The position numbers and the translations under genes were made by a program. A stretch of 32,645 bases of DNA. It comes from Rozella allomycis CSF55. Its lineage: Eukaryota. The stretch lies in contig KE561199.1 in assembly GCA_000442015.1 (NCBI GenBank), forward strand, positions 1 to 32,645, in the 5' to 3' direction. This document shows, in pieces, positions 1,391 to 32,594 of this stretch (within the stretch, counting starts at the first letter, position 1; each line of letters opens with the position of its first letter). The notes below the pieces were generated by a model. That model made no database searches. It was not told where the DNA came from and saw only the letters and a program-made list of their open reading frames with translations.

Positions 1391-2018
1391 TGCCGGAGTG
1401 ATTGAAACAGCAATCTCTTCAACATGATTACCATGCTGAAAGTACAAAGACAACGGAAGTTTCTCTTCTTTTCCAAACGGATACTTCGCCCAAACTCCTT
1501 CGCAAAAATCAACATCTGCTAAAATAATATCTTTGCCAATAAACCAGCTGCCAGATATCTTTTGTCTGTCTTTGCATTCAATTGGATACCGGAACGACCA
1601 CACTCTGTTTGTGAAATCCATGCTTTGGTGAAACGAGAGCGGCTTGAAAGCAGATAGACTAGAGATATGGTGTGATAAAGCAACTTGGCCCTTTTCGACT
1701 CCCTTGTAGATATACTCTAATTTGGCGTTCACAAAAAGTTGGCCGTTGAATTCTCCAGCATCGGTGCCCTTGACAGAAAGATTTACTTTGATTCCGTTAT
1801 ATAAAAATTGAAAGTCTTTTACGTCTTTGTTTTTAACAGAAATTTGGAACGTGACCTTGTCGCCGTAAACCGAGACTTCGGTGGGCGTCGTTGTCTCCAA
1901 ATTCTTCTTGACAGTAAATTTAATGTCTGTTTATGTAAATTAAAGAATATTTACCGCTATTTGTTGTAAAACATAAGCATTCAAAAGACAAAAGCACTAA
2001 AAGTAAAAATTTTACCAT
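1391..2018 (-). CDS. Surface family, copy D (C-terminus cut at N 1390)
   Basis: ATG 2018 gives MVKFLLLVLLSFECLCFTTNS, intron 1954-1927 (28 nt, GT-AG), then DIKFTVKKNLETTTPTEVSVYGDKV..., in frame with ORF 1331-1900. Confidence 0.8.
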
Positions 2019-2199
2019 GCTGATGTGGCTGGCACAAAATTAGATGAATTTTTTTCATATGGCAAGCCTTTTTACGAAAAAGAACTAAATTAAATTTACG
2101 TCATCCAGTATTACACCAAATTAAAATAATAAAAGGTTACAAGTATCATATTTATCAATTCATGATAAATCTGGATTTACAAAAATCAAAAAAATTAGG

Positions 2200-5100
2200 A
2201 TGCTATATCGGTTTCGACACCTAAACAATTTCAAACGACCTCATTTCTTGTATATTTATTCGCGAAATATATCCTTGCGTCCTTTGATACGTATTGGCAT
2301 TGGATCCGGTTTTGTATCTGCTGGTAGCTACGTTTACACAAAATACAATCGTAAGATTCATAAAAGACATTTATAGAATTTACAAATACAATTAACAATA
2401 ATGTTAACTGGGTTTTTGAAAATATTAATCAAGCCAAGGACAGTATAACAAATTACAAATTGCATTGGGTTGGTGCAGAAAAGAATCACGTAAAGAATTC
2501 ACAGAATACTCAATCCCAAGGCGAAACAAGTGGAGAAGGGAATAATGACGCCCAGATTTTTACTACTGCAGGCATTGCTGGATACGTGAGCTCAGATGAT
2601 GAAAAGACGGAAGACGATAAAGAATCGGAATTCAGCTTAATTATTAAAAAGATGATTGACTTAAGGAATATATTAAAGGCATTGGGCCAGGACAATATGA
2701 TCACTCTTCCCAGTATTGTTGTCGTAGGTTCTCAAAGTAGCGGCAAAAGCTCTGTTTTAGAGTCCATAGTTGGACATGAGTTTCTTCCAAAGTATATATA
2801 ATTTTATGATATAATATAGGGGATCAAACATGGTGACTAGAAGGCCATTAGAATTGACTCTTGTGAATTGCGAAACGGAAGAAGATTATGCGGAATTCCC
2901 AAATCTTGGTCTGGGAAAAATATATGACTTTAAAAAAGTACAGAAAACGCTCACTGATTTAAATAATGCAGTTCCCGAAAAAGAGTGCATTTCCAATTCT
3001 CCAATTGAACTTTATGTCTATTCCAAAAATGTCCCAGATTTATCTCTAGTTGATTTGCCAGGATATATACAAATCACATCAAAGGATCAACCAGAGAAAC
3101 TGAGAGAAAAAATTATCGACCTTTGCGATAACTACATTAAAGACAAGAATATTATTTTAGCCGTCTCAGCGGCGGATGTGGATTTAGCAAATTCAGAAGC
3201 ATTAAAGAGGAGCAGGGCTGCTGATCCGTTAGGGACGAGGACTATTGGTGTTATTACAAAGATGGATTTAGTTGATCCGCAAAGTGGATATCAAATTTTG
3301 AATAACAAGAGTTATCCCCTTCCCATGGGATATATTGGTGTTGTATGTAAACCAGGCACTTCAGCATCATTTGAAACTAATTACTTTAAACAGAACAAAG
3401 TTTATGCGGATGATTCATCTGTCAGTGTATCTTCATTGCGCAAAAAATTGATAAAGACCTTGGAAGCCTCCATGAAAGATTCGCTGTCTTCGGTAAATGA
3501 AGCTGTTTTATCTGAACTTTCTGATGTTAAATATCAATTCAAAGTCCTATTTAATGATAGAGAAATATCGCCTGAAGGGTATGTTTCAACTATATTGGCA
3601 CAATTCAAGTCAAATCTAACGTCTGTTGCATCCCAATTNAGAGTCCATAGTTGGACATGAGTTTCTACCCAAGTATATATAATTTTATGATATAATATAG
3701 GGGATCAAACATGGTGACTAGAAGGCCATTAGAATTGACTCTTGTGAATTGCGAAACGGAAGAAGATTATGCGGAATTCCCAAATCTTGGTCTGGGAAAA
3801 ATATATGACTTTAAAAAAGTACAGAAAACGCTCACTGATTTAAATAATGCAGTTCCCGAAAAAGAGTGCATTTCCAATTCTCCAATTGAACTTTATGTCT
3901 ATTCCAAAAATGTCCCAGATTTATCTCTAGTTGATTTGCCAGGATATATCCAAATCACATCGAAGGATCAACCAGAGAAACTGAGAGAGAAAATTATCGA
4001 CCTTTGCGATAACTACATTAAAGACAAGAATATTATATTAGCCGTCTCGGCGGCTGACGTGGATTTAGCAAATTCAGAAGCATTAAAGAGAAGCAGGGCT
4101 GCTGATCCGTTAGGGACGAGGACTATAGGTGTAATTACAAGATGGATTTAGTTGATCCGCAAAGTGGCTATCAAATTTTGAATAACACGAGTTATCCCCT
4201 TCCCATGGGATATATTGTTGTTGTATGTAAACCAGGCACACCGGCATCCTTTGAAACTAATTACTTTAAACAGAACAAAGTTTATTTGGATGATTCATCT
4301 GTCAGTGTATCTTCATTGCGCAAATAGTTGATAAAGACTTTGGAAGCCTCCATGAAAGATTAGCTGTCTTCGGTAAATGAAGCTGTTTTATCTGAACTTT
4401 CTGATGTTATAATATCAATTTAAAGTCTTATTCAATGATAGAGAAATATCCCCTGAAGGGTATGTTTCTACTATATTGGCACAATTCAAGTCAAATCTAA
4501 CGTCTGTTGCATCCCAATTTTCTAAAAGTTCCATAAGAAAATTGATTAGAGATAGACTCGAAAAAAGTTTAATAGAAATTATTGCTCAAAACTACTGCTT
4601 TAATCCATCCATAAAGGCATTAGATAAAGAATCTGCAAGTGACCCTTATTGGATTCGCCAAGTTCAAATTGGATCTTCTTCTTTAGTTAAATCTGAAATA
4701 GTTAAAAATTGTACCATGGATCTTGTTAATGAAATGGAGTCGCAATTTTCATCTCTAGTCAACAAGGAACCTTTAGTGCATCATTCATCAACACTTTCTC
4801 AAATGGTGCAACTTGTTCAAAAGAAATTAAGAAATAANTTAGAAAGAAGTTTGATAGAAATTATTGCTCAAAACTACTGGTTTAATCCATCCATAAAGGC
4901 ATTAGATAAAGAATCTGCAAGTGACCCTTATTGGATTCGCCAAGTTCAAATTGGATCTTCTTCTTTAGCTAAATCTGGAATTGGTAAAAATTGTACAATA
5001 GATCTTGTTAATGAAATGGAGTCTCAATTTTCATCTCTAGTCAACAAGGAACCTTTTGTGCATCATTCCTCAACACTTTCTCAAATGGTGCAACTTGTTC

Positions 5101-6861: not shown

Positions 6862-8062
6862 TTATTTGCAGTGAGAGTTTCTCATAAAAATTACTATTTC
6901 AACCACTCCTACCACGACAGACATAAATATAAGGACAATAACTATCAATTCCAATGAAGTCGCTTAAATTAAGCCTTAAAATTTCATACCATGATGATTT
7001 GTGCTATGATCCCTGAGCATTTGTAGCAAGTCCGATATTACAGATACTCTCTGATTCAATACAGCGACACGCTGAGATACTTCAAGGTAACTTCTCGCTG
7101 CTAAATATAGTCTCTCCAAGTTTGGTTGATTCCAAAAGAATTCTGGTGTATCTGTGTTCATGCATATACATTTACATTACCTAGCACGTTTGAGACAAGG
7201 TTCACGTTTATTCTCACAGAAAAAAGTTCACCGATAAGTTTAGTTATTTCTTCCCTTGACAAGAACACATTGCCTTCTTCGGCTAGTTGCTTAGGAATGC
7301 CTGATGTCGCGTCAATGCTTTGTTGGACAAGGTCTTCAAATAAAGCAAGCTTAACCGATTGTGCAAGTGCATGACTTAGCGTTAAAAATGTTTTGGTTGA
7401 AGGTGATGATTTCAATGTTATTATATCATTGTAAATTCCAGACTTTGAGTGGGAATCATGAATGTGATACATTAAGTTATCTGTTTGAAATAGACTAGGT
7501 TCAACTGGCTTTAAAGACAAAGGAATCAGTGCCCTGCAAATATCGATCTCATCCTTTTCAGAGAGTCCCCAAAACACAGCAACTCCGTAATCAAATATAA
7601 ACAATTTGCCATTGAAATCATCGGAACTTTGTTTAGACTCTATATTTTGGTCCTTGGAAAGAACACTAGGAATACTTGGATGAAATGGAACATAAAGAGC
7701 TTCTTCAAATAACCTAGTCTCAATCAGCGGGATTGTGCTTTTCAGGAGTGTTGCTATATGTACTAAATCAACTAGGCAATAATTAAATACTATATATAAT
7801 ATTACTTGGCAAAACAATATGCGGAAACTCTATACACGGGAGGGGAATTTTCCTTCAAGTCATTATCCGAGAGAATATCATCCGAGTAACATGTTTCTCT
7901 ATCATCAGGTGGAAATATCACAAGTTTTTGATTGTTCTTGGTAGTGCGATTTACTTTATGATAATTTTTCTCGGATTTTTGATTCGGGGGCTCTTCTTCT
8001 TCATTAGTTCTCGATCTTTTATGAAGTAACGTTGAAATTTTAGAATTATTGATTTTGGCCAT
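6862..8062 (-). CDS. RMD1/RMD8 family (DUF155) protein
   Basis: RVSAYCFA, LFIFDYGVAVFWG, SHALAQSVKL and VLDTPEFFW..P.LE.LY...RSYLEVSQRV.VLNQR motifs plus a C-terminal TM (LELIVIVLIF). Introns 7180-7152 and 6989-6963; the first intron is anomalous (see findings). Confidence 0.88.
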
Positions 8063-8348: not shown

Positions 8349-10252
8349 TTATTTTAAGTTACTTCCATCTTTTTCCATTAAAGAAAGTAAATCTTTTGCT
8401 GATTTCGCCACTTCATAAGCTACTGCTGCAACCCGCTGTTTTGTAAGCTTATCTTGGCACCCTTTTTCACCTATGTATTCGGAGAAATTTCTGTTGAAAT
8501 ATCTTTGCAATTTTTCATTCGCTTTTATCAATTCATTTTTCCATTGCGATAATTCCGAGTAGGCATTGTCTTCAACCGAAACAAGTATGGAAACATTATT
8601 CGAAATGATTTTGGCACTGGATTCAAGATCTTTTATATTTGATTTGGCTTCTTTCAATGTTACCAACAAATCTTGAATATTTTGAACAAGGTCATTGGTT
8701 TCCTTTTCAAGCGCGACCTTCTTGACTTTAAGAATATCCCCTACCTTGATATTTTCATCTGAATTTTTTTGAATTCGAGATTTGGACTTTTTAGATTTTA
8801 TAAAATCAATTAGCTCCACGACTGTATCTGTTAAGCTGTTCGAAGCATCGTTAATCATTTCTAAATAAGAATCAATATATATCTACTGTCTAAATTTGGC
8901 TCTTCGCGACCAGTAGCACATTGTTTGGCGACAGTTATTAATGAAGACAACTTTGAGGACATAGTAGCTCTTAATGATTTTAAATCATCCTTGTTCAGGT
9001 TAATATTTTCTAATGTTGCGTAAAGTTCAAATTCTTCCGCTGACTCACTTATCTTACGCGCAATGTTAACTATTGTCTTCATGGAATCTAAAATATCCGC
9101 GGCCAGCCTAGAAGATGCAGCCGTCTGCATTTGGTCCATGGCGTTCAAAAAGTTTTGAAACAAAGATCCATCAAAATTGAATGATTTGCTCTCACTGTTT
9201 TCATGTACAGAAGCCGTGTTCTGAACATCATTGGCCTCAATTTTTCGTTGCGTTGGTTGTGCGTCATGATGGGTGATTTTTTCTTTATTGTTTTGTCCCA
9301 TCAAATCCAATCTCTTGATTAAATTAGCATATTGGTGTGATAATTGCGCAATACTTTTTCTAAGCTCTTCATTTTCTTCAAACAATCGCCTGTTAATCTT
9401 ATTTAAAGATATGTTAAGTCGTTACGTCTTCTTGTTTTTCTTTCAGTATTTCTAATTGTCTTATCTTTTCGTCGGCCTCATTAACGTTCTTTTCAACTTT
9501 TTTAAGTATCATTTTAGCATTTTATTAAACAATTACTTCTTCAAAGCCTTTTTGAACCTCCATCTGTTTTTTAAGACTGCCAATTTCCCTATTTATTGTC
9601 ATCAAGCTGTCTTCTATATCCAACATACCACTAACATTTTCCTTTTGGTATTTTGTTTCTATTTATACCTTTTTGGACTCATTTTTAAGCATATGTCCTA
9701 GATCATTCATTAAGTTATCGAGCGACTCGAGCGTTTCGTCTTGTGTAGTGACTTCGGGTTGATCTTAATTAATAACTAGGTAATAGCTACTTGTACATAC
9801 TTCCGGAAATCTATTTTCTATTTCGTAGTAAACATCGCTTGCCAGGTCCCTGAACTTGATTTCTGAAAGCGTAGCCAATTTTTGACGAGCTTGGTTTCTT
9901 TTTTGGTGAAATTCATCTTTTAACGGCAAAAAGGGCACTCTATATCGAATATTACTTGCTTACTATTAGCAGCCTTGCTCTCCCTTCTGTCAAGTTCATC
10001 AAATACATCGGTTGCAAGCTCGTGAAACTGAGAAGACGTTAATTTGGACAATTTTTCTTGTGCTGATTGTCTACTAACTGAAATTTGCTCTTTATCTATC
10101 TTTCATGAGAACACAAGAAATACCAATAGATAAATTTGATTGTAGGAATGAATATAAGGCTGCATGATAATTTTTAAATTTCTCATTAATGTTTGACCTA
10201 TAAAATTTACAAGCGAACTTTACGGTCTTCTATGAGGAAAGCTAAATGACAT
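8349..10252 (-). CDS. SPA2: Spa2/GIT-like polarity scaffold
   Basis: Two Spa2-homology repeats (SAQEKLSKLTSSQFHELATDVFDELDRRE; PFLP..FHQKRNQARQKLATLSEIKFRDLASDVYYEIENRFP), a coiled coil and a GIT-type C-terminus (AYEVAKSAKDLL). Six introns of 26-28 nt. Confidence 0.85.
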
Positions 10253-10279: not shown

Positions 10280-11226
10280 CTAATCTACTTTATTTTTGTC
10301 AAAAATAACCTCGAGGATATTTTTTCTTCTGCTAAAGTGAGCGACGGGAGATATTCCGACAAATTCAATGGGTAGATCTAAAATTTCTTTTCTGTGATTA
10401 ACGAAAAATGAAACTGTTGGACCATCATGTTCTAAACACAAGCCATCGACGTCATTCTAGGACTTGAAATAAAATGCGAAGCTTTACCGTGAACAAAGTT
10501 ACTTTAAAAACATTTTCGTCTTGATGCACTTTATAGAAATCGCTGCTTTCAGCCTCAACAATAAGCTTATCGCTTTTGATCGGGATATTGCTGTCAATAT
10601 TATCATTAATGGAATCTGGATCAGTGTGTTCCAATAAATTTTTAAAACACATGTTTTCCAAAATCTCATTGTTATTCCAAATGTAGTTTCCGCTGTATTT
10701 ATCTTCGAGCTGAACAAGGTAAATGATATTCTACAAGTATTGAGTTTGAGTTTTTGAATTACTATTTCGGGGATCGCTTCGTGTACCGTTTGCTTAATTA
10801 AACTCATAAACCTCTTTTCAAATCCAAAATCTGAACTCATGTGGTGTGAAATAGAAGGATGAACAAAAATATCCAACACTTTTTTTCTACTCTCATTACT
10901 GTCAGTCTCCGTTTCAAAAGAGTACGGCATTGGGCGAGTTTCATCCACAACTATGTCAATAGTGATGTTAGACAAGGACCAGTTTGGACATTTAACTTTT
11001 TCAGAAAGTAAAATATTGAGATATAATATAGATTTGTTATTTTCTAAATGGCATTCAAAGCTCTTGTACTTTTCAGCCATTTGTGATCGATCCAGGATAT
11101 GCCGGTAATGTTTGATAGCTTCTTTCTGTAAATTTTTGTATAACTATATAAATTTACGGACTATTGTACTGTTGGGTCCTTTTTCGCCAATTCTTCTAAC
11201 GAGTTCCACAATGAAGATAATTCCAT
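10280..11226 (-). CDS. PIH1-domain co-chaperone, PIH1D2-like
   Basis: N-terminus LWNSLEELAKKDP.LY resembles PIH1D2 (W.LLDDLA..DP..Y); LYLNI and DIFVHP segments; CS-type end AHFSRRKNILEVIF. Introns of 26, 32 and 31 nt. Confidence 0.65.
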
Positions 11227-11501: not shown

Positions 11502-12505
11502 ATGACTGTGTCTGAAGTAGATTGCTTATCCACTCAAGGAATAGCTAAAGATAATTTATATAGTTACTTGTCTGATGTTTTATTGAATAAAGATATAGAG
11601 TTACATGAAAGATTCAGGGCTTTGTTCACTCTGAAGAATATTGGTGGACAACGATCTATTGAAATAATAGGCCAAGGTAGCCGATATATATTCTAAAACA
11701 CAGGGTTTGATGATGAATCAGCTTTGTTAAAGCACGAGTTGGCTTATGTTCTTGGGCAAATGAAAGACAAAGCGGCTATTCCAATTCTAATATCTGTTTT
11801 AGATAATGTTCAAGAGGAACCTATGGTACGACATGAAGTAAATTTAAATCTATATATTGATAGGCCGCGGAAGCACTAGGGGCCATTGGAGATGAATCTT
11901 CATTGTGCATTTTAGAAAAATATAAAAATGATCCTGAAAAATGTGTTTCCGAGACTTGCGAAATCGCAATAGATAATATAAAGTTTGAAACTCTTCGTAA
12001 TAAAGGTATTTCTTCTGAAGGTCAATCATCATTTTCTTCAATAGACCCTGCCCCGTCTCTCGCTACAAAAAGTTTAGAAGAATTAGAATGTTTGTATCTA
12101 GATGATTCCAGACCGCTATTTGAACGATACAGGGCCATGTTTGGTCTTCGCAATGAAGGATCGGAACGAGCAGTGGAAATATTAGCAAAGGGATTTGGCG
12201 ATAAAAGCGAACTTTTTCGCCATGAAGTTGCTTATGTCTTTGGACAAATGCAGCATCCAGCATCAGTTCCGGCATTAATAAAAGTCCTTGATGATAAAAA
12301 CGAAGTAGGAATGGTCAGGCATGAATGTGCAGAAGCCTTAGGCTCCATAGCTACAAAAGAATGCTACGATGTACTAAAGGCTTACAGCAATGACTCTAAT
12401 AGAGTTGTTAGGGAAAGTTGTTTGGTTGCTCTTGACATGTATGAACATGAAAACAGCGGCGAATTTCAATATGCCAACGGTGTGAACAATTTTAATGATA
12501 ATTAA
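11502..12505 (+). CDS. LIA1: Deoxyhypusine hydroxylase
   Basis: RFRALFTL and four HE motifs ([37 protein letters not shown]). Introns 11677-11703 and 11838-11863. Confidence 0.96.
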
Positions 12506-15795: not shown

Positions 15796-16408
15796 ATGGA
15801 GGCTTTATTTGGCATCGTAGGAAAAGACTTTGTACTTATCGCAGCAGACAAATCCCAAGTTCGCTCTATAGTCGTTATGAAAACGGATCAAGATAAAACA
15901 CGTAATCTTAATGACAATATTGTAATGGCATGTGCTGGGGAACCTGGTGATACAAGCTCTTTTGGTGAGTTCATTCAAGCTAATGTACAATTATATTCCA
16001 CTAGAAACGGTTACAATATGTCAACGAAAGAAACAGCGCACTTCACGCGCAGCTCAATAGCGAAATCACTTCGCTCCAGAGTAAAACACCGAAACTTTAT
16101 TCACATAGAATCCATACCAAGTCAATATGATTATCGCTGGCTACCATCCAAGAGATGGGCCGGAACTTTATTGGATTGATTACATGGGAACGATGCAAAA
16201 GTTGCCTTTTGCTGGGCATGGATATTCTGCATACTTTAATCTTTCCTTATTAGATAGACATTACAAAGCTAATATGTCCTTAGAAGAAGCGTCTTCAGTT
16301 CTTGGGATGTGTTTTCAAGAATTAAAAACCAGGTTTATGGTCAACCTCCCAGAGTTCACTGTTAAAGTGATTGATAAGGATGGTATTCGCGAACACAAAA
16401 TTCAATAA
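15796..16408 (+). CDS. PRE1: 20S proteasome subunit beta-4 (PSMB2)
   Basis: MEALFGIVGKDFVLIAAD, LRSR/NPYQVN, GPELYWIDYMG and HGYSAYF motifs; intron 16081-16108. Confidence 0.96.
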
Positions 16409-20600: not shown

Positions 20601-22408
20601 ATGCCTACCACTGACATGTTTCATATTTCTCATGACATTGAATTAATTAGAAATATTTGTAGTAGTGAACCAACGTACGTGACATTGGAACCTAACGTTT
20701 TGATGTCAAATTTTGACCGGTTATATCAACGAAAGAGCAACAATAATGAGATGAACACTTCAAAGAGCATTACGTTGAATTATTGTACCGATGAAGATCA
20801 TGTAATCCCATGCACTACAATGAATGACGCTTATAGACCCAAAATTTCTTCTGATGATTCAATAGGGGACACGAAGCAAAGATTGGCATTCAAAAGTAAC
20901 ATACGCGTTTATATATGTTAAAGAAAGGGATTTTACATCGTCTGTATCATTAAGAGCTGATTTTTTGGTGGCTACGAATGATTTAAGCGGCACACTTAAA
21001 CTGCCAATGCAAAACCTGACCAATCGCAACACATCAACATTAACCCAAAATAGGGGTGATAGCGTTTACAAATCTCTTATTTACGAAGACTTTGAAAAAG
21101 TACTGCTTTATGTGTACATTTTTCAAAGGATACAGGCCTTACGATAAGGCCGAAGGTCCCGGATTCATACATCGCTTCTAAAGAAAATCATGTATCTGAT
21201 ACAGTAGACAATGTTGTGTTTGGCTATGACGATGTGGATTATGCAACAGTTCAAAAAAACTCATTTCTGAGTTCTTCAAACATAGAAGAAAGATCAAAAT
21301 ACATTAAGAATCCAGGAAGTGTGGTTTTATCGATGGAAAATGAGAATAGCACAAACATTTATCTTAGTGAAGTGCAGTCGCGTAAGAAATGATTTTGAGT
21401 AAAATAGAATACCAACCTCCCACACCATCATTCCATGATACCCTTAATTTGAAAGAATCTTACTTAGGGAATTTAAAAGCCGATCATTACAAAGTATACT
21501 AATTCAATTTAAAGACAAAGATTGGTCAAGGATCGATAAATTTTTACGAATCAACGACTAAATCTGCCTATATTGAATTAGGAAGTAATTTCAAAGCAAG
21601 AAAAAAAATTATCAATCCAACCTGCATTAATTTTTGTGATGACTTTATGGAATCATCCGCAAACCCTGCTTCTAAAGACTGGATTTTACCATTAGTTATT
21701 GAAAGCGAAAGTAAACCTCGGAAAAATGATTCAAATAAATCGCATATATGTTTTGGGGACGATAATATTACCCATCGACTCCCAAAATTGGATATCGGTA
21801 GTGATTCACAGAAACCGGTGCGCGTTGCAAAAACAATGCGTGATATAAAGGTGCAAAATTTATTTGAAGAAAATGAAGACAAATCATTATCCAAAAACCG
21901 ATTTATAACAAATAATATGGTGATTTTTTAATCAATTAAGGAATAGATCAATTTTGGCGATAGGTCAGATCTTTACAACAAGAAAATTGCAAGAGCAAAA
22001 AATAACAAGGAAAAATATTCAGATAATGTCAGCTTTGGTGAAAATTACCAAACCATATTGTTTGAAGACACGAAAAATTTTCCCACTCATAAATCCTTTA
22101 TTGATTCATACACAAAAGGGCTGGAAGCACGAAAGAAAAATTTATCCAACAACTTATCTAGAGTAAACCTGAATTATGAATCGTAAGTGTTTGCGCTTTC
22201 ATGAATTAGCGAAAATTTGAAGAGTCAGAGCGACTATTCAGTGAATTATAAAAACTTTGTCAAAGTGAAACGAAACTTTGACCCTCAAACTCATTCTAAG
22301 ACGAAGATGAATATTCAAAAGCTTGAAGATGGAAAATCGGAAAGATATTTTATCACTACCCATCAACATAGTTACATTTCGCCTCATTTTATTATTCAAA
22401 ATGCATAA
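20601..22408 (+). CDS. Repeat protein with Mn-like motifs, SAXO/TEX45-like candidate
   Basis: Six 26-29 nt introns give one continuous ORF containing TTMNDAY, YATVQKNSF, YLSEVQSQY, YESTTKSAY, SDYSVNY and FITTHQHSY, often preceded by (S/N)x(V/I)xFG(D/E). Confidence 0.55.
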
Positions 22409-22416
22409 ATATACAA

Positions 22417-22912
22417 TCAGACAGAATTTTTTTCTTCTTCGAGTTTTGTCTTGTCGTGAATTTTATAATGTCTTTTGAGACGGCTTTGATCCGCAAATAT
22501 TTTACCGCATTCAGGGCATTCCGCCATCATTGATGTTGTTTCGTGTGTATTTGAGTTTGTAGACTTAACTTTTCTGCTTTCATCAAATACTGCCTCAAGT
22601 GAATTGATGACCTTTACCTGTCACCCAAGCATTAGCAAAAAGTGGATAATTTGATAAATTACTGTGCCTTACATTTCTTTGTTCCCATTTTCTAGGTTTG
22701 AAATATGGGAAAATCCATTTTGATTTTATTATTTTCTCCTTTATCTTGTCTGTGTTATCACGAGGTGTGTCGTCCTCCGACATTTCCTGGCCTTGATCCG
22801 CGTAAGTCTTCCTCATTCTAGCAGCCCTAGGTTTAAGATCGTTCAAAAATGTTTCTGATGTTATACTCTTGGGGTCTTTCAAAGATATTCTAATGATTAT
22901 GCCTTTAGACAT
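22417..22912 (-). CDS. Small protein with a two-Trp motif and one C2H2 zinc finger
   Basis: Intron 22617-22590 (28 nt) joins KPRKWEQRNV..FANAWVT to CPECGKIFADQSRLKRHYKIH; TGA at 22419-22417. Confidence 0.75.
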
Positions 22913-22932: not shown

Positions 22933-24457
22933 ATGAGCAACAAGCGAGCCTCTGAGATTGATGACTTTAAAATCAACGCCAAAAAACCTAAAGTAATATT
23001 AAAAAGTAGGAAAAAGTAGGCAAGCGAAGATTCTACTCCTTTGCTACCGATAGACGAAGTAAAAAAGATTTTCAAATTAAGATAGATAAAAAGACAACTC
23101 GAAGATAAAAAGAAATTGTTAGAATCCAAATTGAAGAATGTTAATAGTACAAACAGAGGTCCTGTTATTAATATGCCAAGGGCAAATGTTTCGTCCATTA
23201 AGGTAAAACATGCTCGTTTGCGTGAAAGGCAAATGTAAGGGGAGCAAAAAGAGAACTGAAAATTGAGAAGCCAGTTGTAGATTTTCACAACCCATACTTT
23301 GATCCTACCATTAAGACATTTCACAGTAGAGGCCATAGAAAGTTAAAATTTTCCAAACAGGGGAAATACGTTCAACAAGCTGATCAAGTTAGAACCAAAC
23401 TGAAATTAGCAGAATTACAGAAGAAGATCAATGATAAAGCCAAGGACATTGGCCTCGAAAAACAAATATCGATTTCCGATGAGGTTTTCATTGTAGAAAC
23501 TGTTCCACAAGCTGAATGGTGGGATCTTCAATTTTTACCATCGCATTCTTATGATGATTTAGACTCCAGCAATATTAGTTATGAATTAGTGGGGAATCTA
23601 GTGCATCATCCAGTGCAAGTGAAAGTTCACAATGAAGACACGTCTGTAAAACCTGTCTTCTTAACGAAAGAAGTATTCATATTGATGTTCAAATAAGTAG
23701 GAAAGAAAAAAGTTGCGTAGACAACGTCGTGCAGAAATTCATGAAGAAAAGCAAGAAAAGATTAGACTCGGCTTATTACCACCAGAGCAATCAAAACTAA
23801 AGCTATCAAATATGATGCAAGTTTTGACTAAAGAAGCTGTTCAAGATCCTACTAAAGTCGAGGCGATGGTTAGAGCTCAAATGGAGCAACGTAAATCAAA
23901 ACATGAGCAGCAAAACGCTCAAAGAAAGTTAACTGACGAACAAAGAAGAGAAAAAACTTTACAAAAACTTCAGAAAGATTCTGATAAACAAGTTTTAATG
24001 GCTGTTTTCAAGTATGCATTTTCTTTTAATCTGCAATCATAGAATAAAAGATTTGTCTCACCCTCAGTGGAAATACAAAATTGACATAAATGCCCAGCAA
24101 TTAATGATTACAGTAAAAAATCTACTGAATAAAAACTAGGGTTGTTGTTTAATCCACCCACAGGACAGTGTCCTAATCGTGGAAGCTGGGCCGAAGTCTA
24201 TGCGTCAATACAAGAAACTTCTACTTCAACGAATCAAATGGGATGAATGGCCTGCAACAAGAAATCCTGCAATTCAACCAAGGCTTGAAAATCCGAAAGA
24301 AAATTCTTGTCTTTTAGTGTGGGAGGGCATTTCAAACGAGAGGGTCTTCAAATACTTCACTACCAAGCAAGTACCAACTGAAGAGGATGCTCGAAATTAC
24401 CTGAAAGCATTCGACGTTGTTCATTTATATGAGCATGCCAAAATTAATACTAAATAA
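22933..24457 (+). CDS. PRP3: U4/U6 snRNP splicing factor Prp3
   Basis: NPYFDP, QGKY, EWWD, LTKEERKKLRRQRR..QEKIRLGL.PP..KLKLSNMM.VL..EAVQDPTKVE and LLLQRIKW motifs; six introns of 26-31 nt. Confidence 0.95.
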
Positions 24458-24521: not shown

Positions 24522-27500
24522 ATGAGTGACATTGATAAACTAGACTATTATTATCATTGCATAAATGATATTATTTTGAAACGACAAAATGCATGTACTG
24601 GATTGATTCCAGCATCTACCGCAGTTAATAATCATGGTGACTACAGAGACGCTTGGGTGAGGGATAATGTCTATTCAATACTCGGTAAAATACATTATAC
24701 GTTAAGACTTTAGCTGTATTCGGCCTTGCAATAGCCTACAAAAGATTAGATGATGATAGTGGTCGGGCATTCCAGTTAGAACATAGCGTGGTTAAAACTA
24801 TGAGAGGATTATTATTTGCCATGATGAGGCAATCGAATAAGGTGGAATTATTTAAGAACACTCAATCCCCCGCAAACTCACTTCATGCAAAATATAGCAC
24901 AAGCTCAGGTGATACTGTTGTCGGGTAATGTTTCCGCCGTATAATAATAGGGATCATGCATGGGGTCATTTACAGTTGGACGCAACTTCTATTTACATTC
25001 TTACTCTCGCACAGGTAACTTAAGAATCAAATTAAGCCTTAGATGACAGCGGCGGGTTTTCAAATAATATTTACTTTGGATGAAGTGGATTTTATTCAAA
25101 ACTTGGTTTATTACATTGAAAGAACATATAGAACACCTGATTATGGAATATGGGAAAGGGGAAATAAGATGAATCATGGTTTACCCGAGCTGAATTCTTC
25201 GTCCATAGGAATGGCTGTTGCAGCGCTACAAGCAATAAACGGTATTAATCTTTTCGGTGCTGATGGTGGTCCCAATTCGGTTGTTCATTCCCTTCCTGAT
25301 GAAATCGCTCGCAATTATACTACCTTAATAAGCTGCTTGCCAAGGGAGTCGCATTCCAAGGAAATTGATGCGTAACATAAAATATAATCAATGTTAGAGC
25401 ACTTTTGTCGGTAATCGGATACCCCGCTTTTGCCGTTGACAATCCTGACTATCAAAGAATAACAAGAGAAGAGATCGAGAAGAAATTGCTTGGCCGATAT
25501 GGATGCAGAAGATTCTTACGAGATGGGCATCAAACAGTACTTGAAGATAAGACAAGACTTCATTATGACCCACATGAACTGAAAATATTTGAATCCATTG
25601 AATGCGAATGGCCATTATTTTTCACATACCTAATACTTGACGCGATATTTCTTGGTCGAAAATCAGATGTAGAAAAATACAGTCAAATGCTGGATAAAGT
25701 ATTGGTTGTCGATAAAGAAAGTGGCAGAAAGTTGGTTCCTGAACTTTACATCGTTTCATCTGATGATGTTGAAGCTGAAAAACGAGAGCCTCACAGTCAA
25801 AATAGGCACCCAAATGAAAATGTACCACTTGTCTGGGCACAGTCACTGTACTATATTGGTGAATTGCTAAAAAATAACTTAGTGGATATCAGTGAATTAG
25901 ATCCTCTTGGGAGATACAAATTAATTAATAGACAGAAAAATGATGTATTAATCCAAATAGTGCTGATCAGTGAAAATGAAAGCCTTCAAGCCAAGCTTGC
26001 TACATATGGTGTTGAAACCCAAACTTTAAAGGATACAAACCCGTTTCACGTGGCACATCCATCTGTTTTGCGAGATTCTTACACCGCTCTTGGATACAAC
26101 GAAAAGCTTGGATTAACAGGAAGGCCGAATAGACCTATAGGGAGTTTGGGAACTTGTAAAGTTTATCGTTTTAGAGGGAAATTATACTTTTTCACTCCTC
26201 ATTTTATGGATATGGAGGAATTTTACTTGACTATGGACAATAACTATCTTGTTTCAGTATTTGAGCACGAACTACAGTTTATAAGAAAAAATTGGAAGAG
26301 TCCTGGGAGACCCACGGTAAACAATTCGGTAATAAAGTAATGAAGATGGTTATTCTTTTGAAGACTCATATGATTGCATCCTCTAACAGAAATAAGAATG
26401 ATTTATTAAACTTTATGGTATTTTCTATCGCAATTTAAAAGTAGACAACGCTAAGAACTGGAAAATGCAATGACGTACGCGTCCGACTTGGAGCTCTTCA
26501 TGAAATGATCAATACCGCATGTATTGAAAGCTTAGATTTTCTTCAAGAAAAGATGTCCGCAAATCAAATAGACAAATTGTTTAAACCCTTTAAAATAGAT
26601 GATGTAAATAAAAGAGGTTTCCTACTTAACCATGATTATGGAAAAATAAAGAAGAGAACAGTGTGCTTGCCAAAAAGTCCAAATGGAAAAAAGATTGAAT
26701 TGGAAGAAAATAATACGAATTGCTTTGAATTGTCTGCCCCTTCTTTCAAATTAAAGGATCACAATTTTGAAGCACCAAGAAGGACAATGTCGCCTGGTAT
26801 CAGTAAAAAGCGTCGAGACACATTGAAGAGCAGTGATAGTAGATCTTGTCTTGTACAACTGTCAATTAATACTGATGAAATCTTGAAGCCATTCATTTTA
26901 AAGGACGAATCGAGACTAGGAGAAGCTCTAGAAGTGTTAAAAGAGACTGAAGATATATATGAGCAAATGGACTTGCTTTACTATATTCATTCATGCAAGG
27001 GCATAGATTTTGAATGTGAATGCGGTAACGTGGGAGTTTTGTTGGAAGAAATATACTTTAAAGCGTCTTCACTAAATCTGTGGTCTATTGTGAGGCATGC
27101 TGCCAGCCTATTAGAAAAAGTTGTAAATTCATTGTCAATTAATCTTACTGACTTACTAATTCAACACAAGCACGTCAGCATCGGATACGGACCAGAGGAG
27201 AAATTTGTTTCTGAACCGATACCCCCTGCATTAATAAAAAAATTAATCTATTCTTCAGTTCATGACGATATAAGAGAAGCAACCTTGATTCAAGAAATAT
27301 TAACACATTTGGGCTCTTTCATTCGGGCAGAGCCCAAGTTGTTTGAGGGTATTCTTCGCGTACGCACAAAGTATATTGTTCTGGCTTTACGTGATGATAT
27401 CATGAGACAAAAGAATTTAGATGAGATTGAAGCCTCTGAAACTTTAATGGCAATGAGCCCATCGGATATAAAGACATCTTTAGGTAGGCTACTTTCACTG

Positions 27501-28619: not shown

Positions 28620-28634
28620 AAAAGTTAAACTGAT

Positions 28635-30114
28635 TTATTTCCATTCATAATCTTTTGAATATATAAAGCCATATTTTGATATAAACTCATTAATTCCATG
28701 GGGACCTCTGCTGCCAAATTCATATGGTACTGGCTTTATATTTTCATTTTCGATTTTGTTCAAAAGGGGTGTAAAAATTCTCCATGCCTCCAATAGCTCA
28801 TCGTCCCTTACGAAATTCGAAGAATCATTTTGTAATACATCCAAAAGTAGGGATTCATAAGCATCTGGTATTCTTATGTCTTTGAATCGATTAGAGTATG
28901 ACAAGTCAAGTTCGCTTATAACGCAATCAGTGGCTAGACCAGGTTTCTTGACCATTAACTTTAAGTAAACGGCTTCATTAGGTTGGACTCGCAAGACCAA
29001 CTCGTTACGACTAACGTCTTTAAACACATTTCCAGGGACATCCTTAAATTGGATTCGGACTTCTGCTTTTTGTTCATTTAGCGCTTGTTAACTTTGAGAT
29101 ATATTTTTACCTTTTCCGCATTTTAGAATAAATGGAACACCTTTCCATCGGTCGTTTTGAATGAACAAAACAGCAGCTGCGTATGTAGGGGTAACCGAAC
29201 CATTTGGCACTGTCTTATCATCCAAATAACCCGGTTCTTTTCCATTTGTAGTGTACTGGCCAAGTATAACATTTTCAAACTTTATTGGTTCGATGCATTT
29301 TAAAACACTGACCTAGTTTGATGTTTAAATTTCTTTTACCTTTTCATTTCGAATATCTTGAGAATTTAAACTTTGAGGTTTTTCCATTGCAACAATAGAT
29401 AAAATTTGCATCAAATGATTTTGCATGACATCTCGAATGATTCCAAAGTCATTGAAATATCCACCTCTTCCAGCAGTGCCAATTCTTTCTTTGAAAGTAA
29501 TTTGGACATTATCAATATAATTTCTATTCCAGCATGCTCCGAACATTACATTCGCAAATCTAAGACATAGTAGATTTTTTACCATTTCTTTTCCTAGATA
29601 GTGATCAATGCGAAACATCTTTAATATTTAGAGAATTAAAAATGATTACCTGTTTCTCTTCGAAAACAAGTGCCAGTTGATTAAGAAGAGTTTTTGCAGA
29701 TTCGTAATCGCGACCAAATGGTTTTTCCAAGATGACTCTAGACTGGTTGGTAAAGCAGAAAGATTTAAGTCGAACTCCTACATCTAAGAAAATAGAAGGA
29801 GGCAATGCAAAATAGAATATGCGATCCTGAAATAAAAGTTTGGAGTTTAGAAGAGAAAAAGAATCATCTTGATCGTACTGACCGGAAATGTATGTGCATA
29901 TGCCAAGAAATTCAAGAATGGATGAATCATCTTCAGATTTTAGAAATTGTTTGATGTGAGAATGAAAGTCGACCAAGGTCATGAAAGTTCTAGCGAAACC
30001 AATTATTTGAGAGTTTTTGGGGATGTAACCGAATTTGAATAATTGAAAAAGGGCAGGGAATGTTTTCTTTTTAGCCAAATCCCCAGAGGCACCAAAGACG
30101 ACAATCGAAACCAT
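28635..30114 (-). CDS. ZWF1: Glucose-6-phosphate dehydrogenase
   Basis: [26 protein letters not shown] and IIRDVMQNH motifs; introns 29649-29619, 29339-29313 and 29110-29084. An in-frame ATG also exists at 30204. Confidence 0.97.
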
Positions 30115-30303
30115 GTGGCTTTGACGAAAGATTAAATGTTGGGGGGAAAAGCCAAGAAATAGATGAGAACAAAACATATAATGACTAATTGTGAATTGAG
30201 ACATACATATTTTAAAATAAAGTAATAATCTTATAAATTCATAAATTCATAACATATATTAATTCATAGTTTTAAATTTTGTTGTGCGACTTTATTTAAT
30301 TAT

Positions 30304-32031: not shown

Positions 32032-32361
32032 TATTATCCTACCAGGGTTCAATCCGAAAAAAAACGCGGCTTAGCAAATATCTTCCAAAAATAATACAAA
32101 TCCTTTTTTATTCTTATTAATCTACGTTTATCATTTCTTGTTCTTTCTTTTTCCCCTCGTTTTCAAATTTTCATTTTCAAAATTTTCTATTTTTGGGTCA
32201 GATTGAAAACTAACAAATTTTTAAACGTCTCTCAGGAGAAAAGATAGCCTTTTCATAAAGTTTTCGTCATTATATCATCACTCCCGATATAGAAATTTTA
32301 CAGGGGTTATCTCACATGAATAAACTTTAACGTTGTTTCAATATATATCCATTATCAAAAT

Positions 32362-32594
32362 TTATTTTAGTAGTGCTTCTAGATCATCAACAAGTTTATC
32401 AGTCGATATCTTGGTTTGTTGCTTCTTCTTTTTCATCCTTTGTTTCATACTTGAATCCTAATCTTTTTTCTTTAACATCTATACCTTGACAAATATTGAA
32501 TTCACATTGTCGATATCATTCAATAAATCTTCTTTCACTTTGCGAAGCCGCTTTTTTCTGACTTTCATTTTTTCAGCCACCGTATAAAAATTCA
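32362..32594 (-). CDS. 3' end of an unidentified Lys-rich gene entering from the right edge
   Basis: NFYTVAEKMKVRKKRLRKVKEDLL..FVK, a 27-nt GT-AG intron (32484-32458), then DSSMKQRMKKKKQQ..LEALLK* with the stop inside AATAAA. Confidence 0.6.

What the first reader, a model, noticed from the sequence alone, without database searches (positions are those of the whole stretch)
1927..32484. Ruler-like splicing: introns of 26-32 nt that use the first AG at or beyond 26 nt
Seen: about 65 hand-traced introns, none under 26 nt, with no consistent CTRAY branch point or polypyrimidine tract; many are purine-rich. Nearer AGs are skipped: AG at nt 25 in PIH intron 10487-10457 (uses 31) and PRP3 23673-23700 (uses 28); at nt 24 in SPA2 9963-9938 (uses GAG at 26) and in 22617-22590 (uses 28). 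Longer 31-32 nt introns have no AG between 26 and their end. Tiny introns are known in ciliates, nucleomorphs and microsporidia. The sharp floor suggests distance-based acceptor choice (inference). Intron calls rest on frame restoration, not cDNA.
Basis: partly seen in the sequence, partly recalled or inferred. Interest (0 to 1): 0.7.

Follow-up and report, generated by a model that had tools for sequence, protein, structure and literature searches.

The report
Rozella's 26-base minimum-length introns
This stretch of the parasitic fungus Rozella allomycis is full of real, extremely short introns that never fall below 26 bases and carry a conserved A exactly 23 bases from their start, which puts a fungus among the few lineages known to splice at the physical lower limit of intron size.

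Summary
The window is a scaffold of Rozella allomycis CSF55. I traced 62 GT-AG introns of 26-33 nt (19 of exactly 26, none shorter), plus three longer or ambiguous ones. Protein homology confirms 26 of the 62 at residue level. AGs ending at bases 21-25 are passed over in 14 introns, 6 of them homology-checked. The floor is real: a gene finder restricted to 'first AG at or beyond d' scores best at d=26 and drops sharply at 27. The 'first AG' half is not shown. Only 54 positions can test it, about 1.8 AGs are expected there by chance (P of none 0.16), and a 68-nt and a 48-nt intron pass over later AGs. My reading is that these are ordinary U2-type introns compacted to a steric minimum, with the branch A 23 nt from the donor and the acceptor at the first AG at least 3 nt further on. 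This is a new member of the known short-intron class (ciliates, dicyemids, myxozoans). I had no RNA data.

The parts
1927..1954 (-). intron, 28 nt, base 23 A (secreted-protein paralogue 2018-1331)
   Evidence: restores frame
2351..2376 (+). intron, 26 nt, base 23 A (dynamin-like gene)
   Evidence: restores frame
2792..2819 (+). intron, 28 nt, base 23 A (dynamin-like gene)
   Evidence: Dynamin_N profile 25 | 27 abut across it with one split codon
6237..6265 (+). intron, 29 nt, base 23 A (paralogue 6173-6774; same site as 1927-1954)
   Evidence: restores frame
6963..6989 (-). intron, 27 nt, base 23 T (RMND1/DUF155 gene)
   Evidence: restores frame; same junction in public model P0121
7152..7180 (-). 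intron, 29 nt, base 23 A (RMND1)
   Evidence: DUF155 profile 141 | 143 abut
7738..7805 (-). long intron, 68 nt; AGs ending at 16, 34, 43, 52 passed over (RMND1)
   Evidence: only this donor keeps the motif shared with 6 of 9 aligned homologues; only the AG at 68 restores the frame
8861..8886 (-). intron, 26 nt, base 23 T (SPA2/GIT-like gene)
   Evidence: restores frame
9398..9425 (-). intron, 28 nt, base 23 A (SPA2)
   Evidence: restores frame
9489..9536 (-). long intron, 48 nt; AG ending at 40 passed over (SPA2)
   Evidence: frame only: the only GT-AG that removes two in-frame stops and keeps the frame
9642..9668 (-). intron, 27 nt, base 23 A (SPA2)
   Evidence: restores frame
9764..9796 (-). 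intron, 33 nt, base 23 T (SPA2); a 27-nt reading from a donor 6 nt further on also fits
   Evidence: restores frame; ambiguous donor
9938..9963 (-). intron, 26 nt, base 23 A; AG ending at 24 passed over (SPA2)
   Evidence: restores frame
10096..10123 (-). intron, 28 nt, base 23 A; AG at 24 passed over (SPA2)
   Evidence: restores frame
10457..10487 (-). intron, 31 nt, base 23 A; AG at 25 passed over (PIH1)
   Evidence: restores frame; using the AG at 25 leaves an in-frame stop
10731..10762 (-). intron, 32 nt, base 23 A (PIH1)
   Evidence: restores frame
11144..11169 (-). intron, 26 nt, base 23 A (PIH1)
   Evidence: restores frame
11677..11703 (+). intron, 27 nt, base 23 C (HEAT_PBS / deoxyhypusine-hydroxylase-like gene)
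   Evidence: restores frame
11838..11863 (+). intron, 26 nt, base 23 A (same gene)
   Evidence: this donor, not the one 12 nt upstream, keeps the motif repeated in the protein's second half
13008..13035 (-). intron, 28 nt, base 23 T (unknown gene 13450-12538)
   Evidence: restores frame
13603..13632 (+). intron, 30 nt, base 23 A (AIP1/WDR1 gene)
   Evidence: junction gapless against solved AIP1 chain 1nr0_A from residue 1
13755..13780 (+). intron, 26 nt, base 23 A (AIP1)
   Evidence: junction gapless against solved chains
13872..13898 (+). hidden intron, 27 nt, in frame, no stop, base 23 T (AIP1)
   Evidence: its 9 codons are an insert absent from both solved chains; bounded by GTAAAA and AAAG
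14047..14074 (+). intron, 28 nt, base 23 A (AIP1)
   Evidence: junction gapless against solved chains
14334..14359 (+). intron, 26 nt, base 23 A; AGs at 16 and 21 passed over (AIP1)
   Evidence: junction gapless against solved chains
14681..14708 (+). intron, 28 nt, base 23 A (AIP1)
   Evidence: junction gapless against solved chains
14788..14814 (+). intron, 27 nt, base 23 A (AIP1)
   Evidence: restores frame; public model P0280 instead drops 17 residues here
15153..15179 (+). intron, 27 nt, base 23 C (AIP1)
   Evidence: junction aligned with a 1-residue gap beside it
15351..15379 (+). intron, 29 nt, GTC donor, base 23 A (AIP1)
   Evidence: junction gapless against solved chains
15528..15554 (+). 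hidden intron, 27 nt, in frame, no stop, base 23 A (AIP1)
   Evidence: its 9 codons fall where both solved chains show gaps; top-ranked in-frame intron-like candidate
15617..15645 (+). tentative intron, 29 nt, base 23 A (AIP1 C-terminus)
   Evidence: first AG at or beyond 26 from a GTAAG donor; public model uses a 15-nt intron here; not tested by homology
16081..16108 (+). intron, 28 nt, base 23 A (proteasome beta subunit)
   Evidence: Proteasome profile 97 (+2 residues) | 101
16509..16534 (+). intron, 26 nt, base 23 A (ubiquitin C-terminal hydrolase)
   Evidence: joins a 13-codon first exon to the exon that starts at Peptidase_C12 profile position 11
17066..17093 (+). intron, 28 nt, base 23 A (UCH)
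   Evidence: restores frame
17742..17767 (+). intron, 26 nt, base 23 T (UDP-glucuronate-decarboxylase-like epimerase gene)
   Evidence: restores frame
17978..18003 (+). intron, 26 nt, base 23 A (same gene)
   Evidence: Epimerase profile 116 ... 146 spanned by the 29-residue exon between this and the next intron
18094..18122 (+). intron, 29 nt, base 23 A in a CTAAC; AG at 14 passed over
   Evidence: as above
18852..18877 (+). intron, 26 nt, base 23 A (coiled-coil gene 18720-20373)
   Evidence: restores frame
19142..19167 (+). intron, 26 nt, base 23 A (same gene)
   Evidence: restores frame
19378..19403 (+). intron, 26 nt, base 23 A (same gene)
   Evidence: restores frame
19664..19690 (+). intron, 27 nt, base 23 C (same gene); a 45-nt reading also keeps the frame
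   Evidence: restores frame; ambiguous acceptor
19884..19909 (+). intron, 26 nt, base 23 A (same gene)
   Evidence: restores frame
20075..20100 (+). intron, 26 nt, base 23 G; no A at 18-24, CTAAA at 9-13 (same gene)
   Evidence: restores frame
20896..20923 (+). intron, 28 nt, base 23 T (unknown gene 20601-22408)
   Evidence: restores frame
21100..21128 (+). intron, 29 nt, base 23 T (same gene)
   Evidence: restores frame
21382..21407 (+). intron, 26 nt, base 23 A (same gene)
   Evidence: restores frame
21494..21520 (+). intron, 27 nt, base 23 C (same gene); a 21-nt reading keeps the frame too
   Evidence: undecided between 21 and 27 nt
21920..21946 (+). intron, 27 nt, GTG donor, base 23 A; AG at 21 passed over
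   Evidence: restores frame
22183..22209 (+). intron, 27 nt, base 23 A (same gene)
   Evidence: restores frame
22590..22672 (-). one intron, either 55 nt (22672-22618) or 28 nt (22617-22590), zinc-finger gene
   Evidence: both restore the frame; undecided
22993..23019 (+). intron, 27 nt, base 23 A; AG at 24 passed over (PRP3)
   Evidence: restores frame
23059..23085 (+). intron, 27 nt, base 23 G; AG at 23 passed over (PRP3)
   Evidence: restores frame
23203..23228 (+). intron, 26 nt, base 23 A (PRP3)
   Evidence: restores frame
23673..23700 (+). intron, 28 nt, base 23 A; AG at 25 passed over (PRP3)
   Evidence: PRP3 profile 142 | 143 abut
24012..24042 (+). intron, 31 nt, base 23 C (PRP3)
   Evidence: restores frame
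24113..24139 (+). intron, 27 nt (not 51), base 23 A (PRP3)
   Evidence: Prp3_C profile 27 | 28 abut
24685..24713 (+). intron, 29 nt, base 23 A; AG at 22 passed over (phosphorylase kinase alpha/beta)
   Evidence: gapless against the homologues shown; Glyco_hydro_15 profile about continuous
24925..24950 (+). intron, 26 nt, base 23 A (PhK)
   Evidence: profile 114 | 116 with a split codon; gapless
25015..25042 (+). intron, 28 nt, base 23 C; AG at 22 passed over (PhK)
   Evidence: profile 136 | 137; gapless
25372..25397 (+). intron, 26 nt, base 23 T (PhK)
   Evidence: gapless against the homologues shown
26317..26345 (+). intron, 29 nt (not 17), base 23 A; AG at 21 passed over (PhK)
   Evidence: 11 of 11 homologues join the two flanking motifs without the 4 residues a 17-nt intron would leave
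26418..26444 (+). intron, 27 nt, base 23 A; AG at 24 passed over (PhK)
   Evidence: gapless against homologues
29084..29110 (-). intron, 27 nt, base 23 A (G6PD)
   Evidence: G6PD_C profile 152 | 154 with a split codon
29313..29339 (-). intron, 27 nt, base 23 A (G6PD)
   Evidence: G6PD_C profile 77 | 78
29619..29649 (-). intron, 31 nt, base 23 A (G6PD)
   Evidence: G6PD_N profile 168 | 169-170

Best explanation
These are ordinary U2-type GT-AG spliceosomal introns of the fungus Rozella allomycis that have been compacted to the smallest size its spliceosome can handle. The donor is little more than GTA(A). There is no CTRAY consensus and no pyrimidine tract. The one internal signal is an adenosine 23 nt from the donor, in a weak T-R-A-Y context. 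I take it to be the branch point, sitting at the shortest donor-to-branch spacing that lets both ends reach the catalytic centre (inferred). Exon ligation then uses the first AG whose G lies at least 3 nt beyond that A (inferred). This gives the floor of 23 + 3 = 26 nt and makes every AG before base 26 invisible. Where the branch lies further downstream, as it must in the 48-nt and 68-nt introns, later AGs upstream of or beside the branch are passed over in the same way. So the 'ruler' is a minimum spacing to the branch point, not a measuring of the acceptor. Shown here: the intron positions, the length floor, the passed-over AGs and the A at base 23. Inferred: that this A is the branch point, and the steric cause.
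For: Organism: the DUF155 reading frame is 100% identical to a protein named for Rozella allomycis CSF55, seen on a contig of 32645 bases, which is the window's length.

The introns are real. 26 of 62 junctions are confirmed by protein homology: Pfam profile coordinates abut across 13, all 6 phosphorylase-kinase junctions are gapless against homologues, 9 AIP1 junctions or inserts fit solved chains, and 1 rests on an internal repeat.

The floor is real. Lengths are 26:19, 27:17, 28:12, 29:8, 30-33:6, and none is shorter. A gene finder allowed only 'first AG ending at or beyond d' scores 1400.8 at d=26, against 1386.6 at 25, 1317.5 at 27 and 1180.5 at 30.

Earlier AGs are invisible. 39 AGs end at bases 7-25 (0.033 per position, against 0.039 expected from composition). 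14 introns have one at 21-25, 6 of them homology-confirmed.

Base 23 is a signal. It is A in 45 of 62 introns (background 0.374, p 2e-8), and in 15/19, 10/17, 9/12 and 11/14 of the 26-, 27-, 28- and 29+-nt classes. For introns of 28 nt or more, A23 is 19/25 against 7/25 at base 22, 12/25 at base 24 and at most 14/25 at any position counted from the 3' end. In the homology-confirmed set it is 22 of 26. TRAY starts at base 21 in 8 introns against 0-3 at other starts; RAY starts at base 22 in 17 against at most 9; G at base 22 is 15/59, p 8e-4.

Control: 83 look-alikes in sense exons (GTA plus first AG at or beyond 26, up to 34 nt) have flat lengths, A23 35%, AT 60% (real 74%), A at base 4 23% (real 70%) and T at -3 16% (real 58%).

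Literature: passages of PMC13644364 report for myxozoans and Dicyema weakly conserved As that lie further from the AG the longer the intron, and read them as branch sites. Passages of PMC2483917 report preferred branch-to-AG distances as short as 3 nt in one yeast.
Against: There is no RNA evidence at all: no RNA run holding the stretch was listed. So neither the junctions, nor the non-use of the nearer AGs, nor the branch site has been observed.

17 of 62 introns lack A at base 23. One (20075-20100) has no A at bases 18-24, but has a CTAAA at 9-13 followed by a T run. A branch only about 13 nt from the donor therefore seems possible, which weakens the idea of a 23-nt minimum spacing.

A branch A only 3 nt from the terminal G is shorter than in Stentor, where passages of PMC9505925 place it at base 10 of 15.

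Because 48 of 62 introns are 26-28 nt, anchoring to the 5' end and to the 3' end are hard to separate. The case rests on 26 introns of 28 nt or more.

36 of 62 junctions rest on frame restoration alone. The gene finder that proposed them allowed only GT-AG.
Confidence: 0.6

Rival explanations
1. One reading: the acceptor itself is chosen by a ruler from the donor. The first AG at or beyond 26 nt is used, and no branch signal plays a part.
For: All 62 short introns obey it. The constrained gene finder peaks at d=26. CTRAY occurs in only 3 of 59 introns.
Against: Only 54 positions can test the 'first AG' part, with 1.8 AGs expected and P(0)=0.16. The 68-nt intron 7805-7738, whose donor is fixed by a motif shared with 6 of 9 aligned homologues, passes over AGs ending at 34, 43 and 52. 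The 48-nt intron 9536-9489 passes over one at 40. A donor-anchored A at base 23 exists. On random sequence the rule gives flat lengths, so the pile-up at 26-28 needs compaction in any case.
Confidence: 0.15
2. Compaction only. Branch points are chosen as in other fungi by weak U2 pairing at variable places. Introns have simply shrunk to a total-length minimum. The A at base 23 is a by-product of A-rich 3' ends in a narrow length range, or has some other role.
For: Positions -8 to -6 are also mildly A-rich (28-29 of 58). One intron has its only plausible branch at about base 13. The long introns must branch far from base 23. Passages of PMC2483917 describe short-intron lineages as lacking any branch signature.
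Against: A23 holds in every length class and beats every 3'-anchored position among introns of 28 nt or more (19/25 against at most 14/25). TRAY and RAY matches peak exactly there. Exonic look-alikes show A23 at 35%.
Confidence: 0.2
3. Artefact: the short introns are products of frame tracing, of sequencing errors or of mis-assembly, not real introns.
For: The first 6.8 kb carries Ns and 0.9-kb near-identical repeats. 36 of 62 junctions rest on frames alone. No RNA was available.
Against: 26 junctions are confirmed at residue level in 9 different genes. The introns share GTA, AT-richness and A23, unlike exonic look-alikes. The density of about 65 introns in 24.3 kb of exon matches the 2.53 introns per kb given for this species in PMC8476143 (passages).
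Confidence: 0.03

Closest known systems
Ultra-short introns of myxobolid myxozoans and Dicyema japonicum (PMC13644364, passages read)
   Same: Introns of about 20-27 nt with weak signals. Weakly conserved As lie further from the 3' AG the longer the intron, that is, they are anchored to the 5' end, and the authors read them as the branch site. No pyrimidine tract.
   Different: Those are animals with a median of 22-26 nt. Here it is a fungus with a floor of 26 nt and a single sharp A at base 23. That study used thousands of introns, annotation and snRNA/U2AF surveys; I had 62 introns and no RNA.
Short-intron, intron-dense lineages as defined by Irimia and Roy 2008 (Paramecium, Bigelowiella nucleomorph, dicyemids; PMC2483917, passages)
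   Same: Narrow length distribution at a minimum, donor reduced to GT(A), no branch-point consensus, relatively high intron density.
   Different: Rozella is not on that list, nor on the list of lineages with introns under 30 bp in PMC13644364. In Paramecium, in-frame (3n) introns are under-represented and rich in stops (PMC5014332 abstract and passages). Here 19 of 62 are 3n and at least 2 have no stop.
Microsporidian miniature introns (Encephalitozoon cuniculi), the sister lineage
   Same: Very short introns (mean 35.8 nt in PMC2483917; 'miniature' in PMC6349667) in a reduced parasite related to Rozella.
   Different: Microsporidia have few introns with a strong donor and a CTAAYTT branch motif and poor splicing of the short ones. 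Rozella has about 2.5 per kb with weak signals. PMC6349667 notes in passing two putative introns of about 30 nt in Rozella S23 that lack those motifs.
Stentor coeruleus 15-16-nt introns (PMC9505925, passages)
   Same: GTA donor, no branch consensus, and a positionally fixed branch A a few bases before the AG.
   Different: The A is at base 10 of 15 and base 11 of 16, so it moves with the 3' end. The length is almost invariant. It is a ciliate.
Classical branch-point-to-first-AG scanning and AG exclusion zones (PMC1431707, search listing only; the scanning model itself is recalled)
   Same: The acceptor is the first usable AG downstream of the branch. AGs upstream of the branch or too close to it are ignored.
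   Different: Here the whole arrangement is squeezed into 26 nt, and the branch seems to be specified mostly by position.

Membership tests
U2-type GT-AG spliceosomal introns | GT...AG termini, and removal restores a continuous, homologous protein | tested here: met
   26 of 62 junctions are confirmed at residue level. The gene finder admitted only GT-AG, so the termini are partly by construction.
U2-type GT-AG spliceosomal introns | Branch-point adenosine upstream of the acceptor | tested here: inconclusive
   A at base 23 in 45 of 62 introns, with a weak TRAY context. Its use as a branch was not observed.
U2-type GT-AG spliceosomal introns | Spliced out of the RNA | not testable with these tools
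   No RNA run holding the stretch was listed. The one run laid gave only chance matches of 18-37 bases.
Short-intron, intron-dense lineages (Irimia and Roy 2008) | Narrow length distribution pressed against a minimum | tested here: met
   48 of 62 are 26-28 nt and none is shorter. Exonic look-alikes are flat over 26-34 nt.
Short-intron, intron-dense lineages (Irimia and Roy 2008) | Donor reduced to GT(A), with no branch or pyrimidine consensus | tested here: met
   GTA in 60 of 62 and GTAA in 42 of 62. CTRAY in 3 of 59 and 49% pyrimidine at -13..-4.
Short-intron, intron-dense lineages (Irimia and Roy 2008) | High intron density | tested here: met
   About 65 introns in 24,335 nt of sense exon. 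PMC8476143 gives 2.53 per kb for the species.
Paramecium-type surveillance of tiny introns | In-frame (3n) introns depleted, and those present carry stops | tested here: not met
   19 of 62 introns are 3n. 17 carry a stop, but frame tracing can only find such ones. The two found by homology have none.
   True for all 62 short introns, but not beyond chance (P 0.16). It is broken by the 68-nt intron (homology-supported) and the 48-nt intron (frame only).
   A at base 23, p 2e-8.
Introner-like (mobile, sequence-related) introns | Introns similar to one another in sequence | tested here: not met
   Mean identity of 404 same-length pairs is 0.341, against 0.325 for shuffled interiors; maximum 0.64 against 0.71.

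The most novel reading that the evidence does not exclude
In Rozella the branch adenosine is chosen by position rather than by sequence: a fixed 23-nt reach from the donor inside the spliceosome. Branch-site recognition by pairing and by SF1/U2AF would then have become largely dispensable. Unlike in Paramecium, in-frame introns without stops are tolerated. Rozella would then show the intron-dense starting state from which the sister lineage, Microsporidia, reduced its splicing machinery.
Probability: 0.25. Interest if true: 0.7.

Novelty: new member of a known kind. Interest (0 to 1): 0.5.

Why it matters
Lineages that splice introns under 30 nt are few (ciliates, a nucleomorph, microsporidia, dicyemids, myxozoans), and they define what a spliceosome minimally needs. 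This window shows that Rozella allomycis belongs to that class: an intron-dense fungus at the base of the microsporidian branch, with a sharp 26-nt floor and a donor-anchored A. In five searches that named Rozella I found no paper that links it with tiny introns. The only mentions were a passing note of two putative introns of about 30 nt (PMC6349667) and a range of fungal intron medians starting at 29 bp, with no species named in the text I could see (PMC8042348; its Table S7 was not among the files held). I could not read the genome paper (James et al. 2013), which may give intron statistics.

There is also a practical point. The three public gene models I could compare mishandle these introns. 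One fuses PRP3 with phosphorylase kinase and skips a conserved exon. One uses a 15-nt intron, drops 17 residues and translates two hidden introns. One breaks a conserved motif. This proteome is widely used in fungal phylogenomics, and a length-aware intron model would improve it.

Tried and rejected
RNA evidence. No RNA holder was listed for window 22600-32599. The one run offered, a metatranscriptome with the same species label, gave only chance matches of 18-37 bases when laid on 12600-32599.

Whole genome: none is held. tRNA and Rfam scans of the window found nothing.

First guess, a dicyemid or a ciliate. Rejected: the standard code gives long open frames, and the best protein hits are fungal.

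Relatives in metagenomes. A scan with the poly(A)-binding protein returned 80 loci, all at 65% identity or less and mostly contigs of about 2 kb. None was a close relative and none was used.

Representative search with an AIP1 exon. It found only the Rozella protein itself.

Gene finder. A version without a cap on intron length bridged neighbouring genes and short exons with long false introns. It was replaced by a 70-nt cap and by the rule-constrained version.

Rule-conforming alternatives rejected by homology:
- 7837-7807 plus 7791-7764 in RMND1, which removes a conserved motif.
- The public 26-nt GTT intron 7815-7790, for the same reason.
- 26257-26285 in phosphorylase kinase.

Splitting the 68-nt intron into 34 + 26 nt around an 8-nt exon leaves an in-frame stop (reasoned from the sequence).

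Hidden in-frame introns in the poly(A)-binding protein and phosphorylase kinase: there is no Rozella-specific insert of 6 residues or more against 12 homologues each.

Introner-like relatedness of the introns: rejected.

Table S7 of PMC8042348 was not among the supplementary files held. James et al. 2013 is not held.

Full report
WHAT THE WINDOW IS. The window is 32,645 bases at 33-38% G+C. It has no tRNA or Rfam match. Under the standard code it has long open frames on both strands, with eukaryotic domains: dynamin, DUF155/RMND1, GIT/SPA2, PIH1, HEAT_PBS, WD40, proteasome, UCH, an epimerase, PRP3, phosphorylase kinase alpha/beta, G6PD and a four-RRM poly(A)-binding protein. The poly(A)-binding protein is about 60% identical to those of early-diverging fungi. 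The DUF155 frame is 100% identical to a protein that NCBI and UniRef name for Rozella allomycis CSF55 (EPZ31974.1 / RKP22023.1), seen on a contig of 32,645 bases, which is the window's length. No whole genome is held. No RNA run holding the stretch was listed, and the one run offered gave nothing. Everything below therefore rests on this one scaffold and on protein homology.

HOW THE INTRONS WERE TRACED. I wrote a small gene finder: a periodic Markov coding score, GT-AG introns only and no length preference. Without a length cap it bridged genes. With a 70-nt cap it gave about 20 genes in which most introns were 26-32 nt and began with GTA. The total score rises slowly to a maximum at d=26 (1400.8) and falls at once afterwards (1317.5 at 27, 1245.3 at 28, 1180.5 at 30). 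At d=26 the model holds 65 introns.

HOMOLOGY CHECKS. I gave 52 exons to Pfam one at a time. At 13 junctions the profile positions of neighbouring exons abut. Examples: PRP3 142|143, Prp3_C 27|28, G6PD_C 77|78, Glyco_hydro_15 136|137, and DUF155 141|143 with a split codon between. Phosphorylase-kinase homologues fetched align without a gap across all six junctions of my model. A 17-nt alternative at 26329 would leave four residues that 0 of 11 homologues have. The public AIP1 model agrees with mine at 7 of 8 junctions. Aligned to solved AIP1/WDR1 chains, it is gapless across six of them and nearly so at a seventh. In all, 26 of 62 short introns are confirmed at residue level, in nine genes.

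THE SET. There are 62 short introns: 26 nt x19, 27 x17, 28 x12, 29 x8, 30 x1, 31 x3, 32 x1, 33 x1. The donor is GTA in 60 and GTAA in 42. The base before the AG is T in 33 of the 57 GTA-donor introns counted. The interior is A 38%, T 39%, C 13%, G 10%. CTRAY occurs in 3 of 59, and bases -13..-4 are 49% pyrimidine. The introns are not related to one another beyond composition. Three more do not fit the class:
- 7805-7738, 68 nt.
- 9536-9489, 48 nt.
- Either 22672-22618 (55 nt) or 22617-22590 (28 nt).
About 65 introns in 24.3 kb of exon agrees with the 2.53 introns per kb given for this species in PMC8476143 (passages).

THE FLOOR AND THE PASSED-OVER AGs. No intron is under 26 nt. AGs ending at bases 7-25 are as common as composition predicts (39 in 1178 positions = 0.033, against 0.039 expected). 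14 introns have one at 21-25, and 6 of these are homology-confirmed: 14334-14359, 23673-23700, 24685-24713, 25015-25042, 26317-26345 and 26418-26444. The fourth is ambiguous. As a control I took the 83 places in sense exons where a GTA is followed by a first AG at 26-34 nt. Their lengths are flat (5 to 13 per length) and their composition is exon-like. The pile-up at 26-28 nt is therefore an evolved compaction, not a consequence of the rule.

WHAT IS NOT SHOWN. The 'first AG' half of the claim can be tested only at positions 26..L-2 of introns longer than 27 nt. That is 54 positions in all, where 1.8 AGs are expected; finding none has P=0.16. Two introns contradict it. In RMND1, six of nine aligned homologues share an eight-residue motif that Rozella keeps only if the exon runs to the GTA donor at 7805. 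From there only the AG at 68 nt restores the frame, so AGs ending at 34, 43 and 52 are passed over. The public model's rule-conforming 26-nt intron from a GTT donor destroys that motif. In the SPA2-like gene, the only GT-AG that removes two in-frame stops and keeps the frame is 48 nt long and passes over an AG at 40. This second case rests on the frame alone.

THE MISSED SIGNAL. Aligned from the donor, base 23 is A in 45 of 62 introns (background 0.374, p 2e-8). The counts are 15/19, 10/17, 9/12 and 11/14 in the 26-, 27-, 28- and 29+-nt classes. Among introns of 28 nt or more it is 19/25, against 7/25 at base 22, 12/25 at base 24 and at most 14/25 at any position counted from the 3' end. In the homology-confirmed set it is 22/26, and in exonic look-alikes 35%. 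TRAY matches start at base 21 in 8 introns (0-3 elsewhere), RAY at base 22 in 17 (at most 9 elsewhere), and G at base 22 is enriched (15/59, p 8e-4). This is the core of a branch-site consensus, placed by distance from the donor.

MECHANISM. The reading that fits all 65 introns is that the branch A lies at or beyond base 23, and the acceptor is the first AG whose G is at least 3 nt beyond it. The floor is then 23 + 3 = 26. In the 27-nt class, five of the seven introns without A23 have A24. In the 48-nt intron a run of As ends directly at the passed-over AG. In the 68-nt intron, a CAACAC stretch followed by pyrimidines lies between the last passed-over AG and the acceptor. That the A is the branch point, and that the spacing is a steric minimum, are inferences. 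Against them stands one 26-nt intron (20075-20100) with no A at bases 18-24 and a CTAAA at 9-13. A 3-nt branch-to-end distance is also shorter than in Stentor.

COMPARISON WITH WHAT IS KNOWN. The pattern matches the short-intron, intron-dense class of Irimia and Roy: GT(A) donors and no branch signature (PMC2483917, passages). Most closely it matches the 2026 report on myxozoans and Dicyema, where weakly conserved As lie further from the AG the longer the intron (PMC13644364, passages). It differs from the sister lineage Microsporidia, which has few introns with strong donor and branch motifs. It differs from Paramecium, where in-frame introns are depleted and rich in stops (PMC5014332). Here 19 of 62 are in-frame, and two 27-nt ones without any stop, 13872-13898 and 15528-15554, came to light only because their nine codons are inserts absent from solved AIP1 chains. 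No such inserts exist in the poly(A)-binding protein or phosphorylase kinase.

NOVELTY. Five searches that named Rozella found no paper linking it with tiny introns. PMC6349667 mentions two putative introns of about 30 nt in its S23 gene. PMC8042348 gives fungal intron medians of 29-197 bp without naming the species in the text I saw, and its Table S7 was not held. PMC13644364 does not list Rozella among lineages with introns under 30 bp. I could not read the genome paper of 2013. The tiny introns are already implicit in the public gene models, so this is a new member of a known kind, not a new mechanism.

VERDICT. The interpretation needs the branch A added and the 'first AG' claim softened. 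Interest 0.5.

Noticed in passing
13872-13898 and 15528-15554 (+): Two 27-nt GT-AG stretches in the AIP1 gene are in frame and have no stop. The public model translates them, but their 9 codons each are inserts absent from solved AIP1/WDR1 chains. They are probably introns that frame-based tracing cannot see, so in-frame introns without stops seem to be tolerated here.
   Followed up: partly
22933-28619 (+), 13584-15690 (+), 8062-6862 (-): The three public Rozella gene models I could compare mishandle the tiny introns. P0160 (1510 aa) fuses PRP3 with phosphorylase kinase, misreads two junctions, drops 7 conserved residues at a third and skips the conserved 72-nt exon 26346-26417. P0280 uses a 15-nt intron at 15617 and drops 17 residues of a WD repeat. 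P0121 uses a GTT donor that breaks a conserved motif.
   Followed up: yes
375-5111 (+): Seven families of direct repeats with a spacing of about 880-906 nt (one of 282 nt, one of 546 nt) at 80-99% identity duplicate parts of the dynamin-like gene and of a secreted-protein gene. Single Ns and a 58-N run at 5339-5396 lie among them. This looks like an assembly artefact or recent tandem duplication. I left 3661-6170 out of the intron counts.
   Followed up: partly
1620-2019 (-) and 6172-6572 (+): An inverted pair of paralogous genes for a small protein with a signal-peptide-like start flanks the dynamin-like gene (79-81% complementary). Their shared intron site holds 28 nt in one copy and 29 nt in the other.
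   Followed up: no
32031-30304 (-): The poly(A)-binding protein gene has no intron in 1728 nt, while its neighbours have roughly one per 400 nt. No hidden in-frame insert was seen against 12 homologues. My reading of its protein is not in the protein collection as an exact sequence.
   Followed up: partly
7738-7744 and 9489-9495 (-): The two long introns (68 and 48 nt) end in the same seven bases, TGAAAAG.
   Followed up: no
26445-28619 (+): The phosphorylase kinase alpha/beta protein carries an ILEI domain between its GH15 and C-terminal domains. Most fungal homologues listed have the same three Pfam families, so this is a family trait and not a fusion artefact.
   Followed up: no
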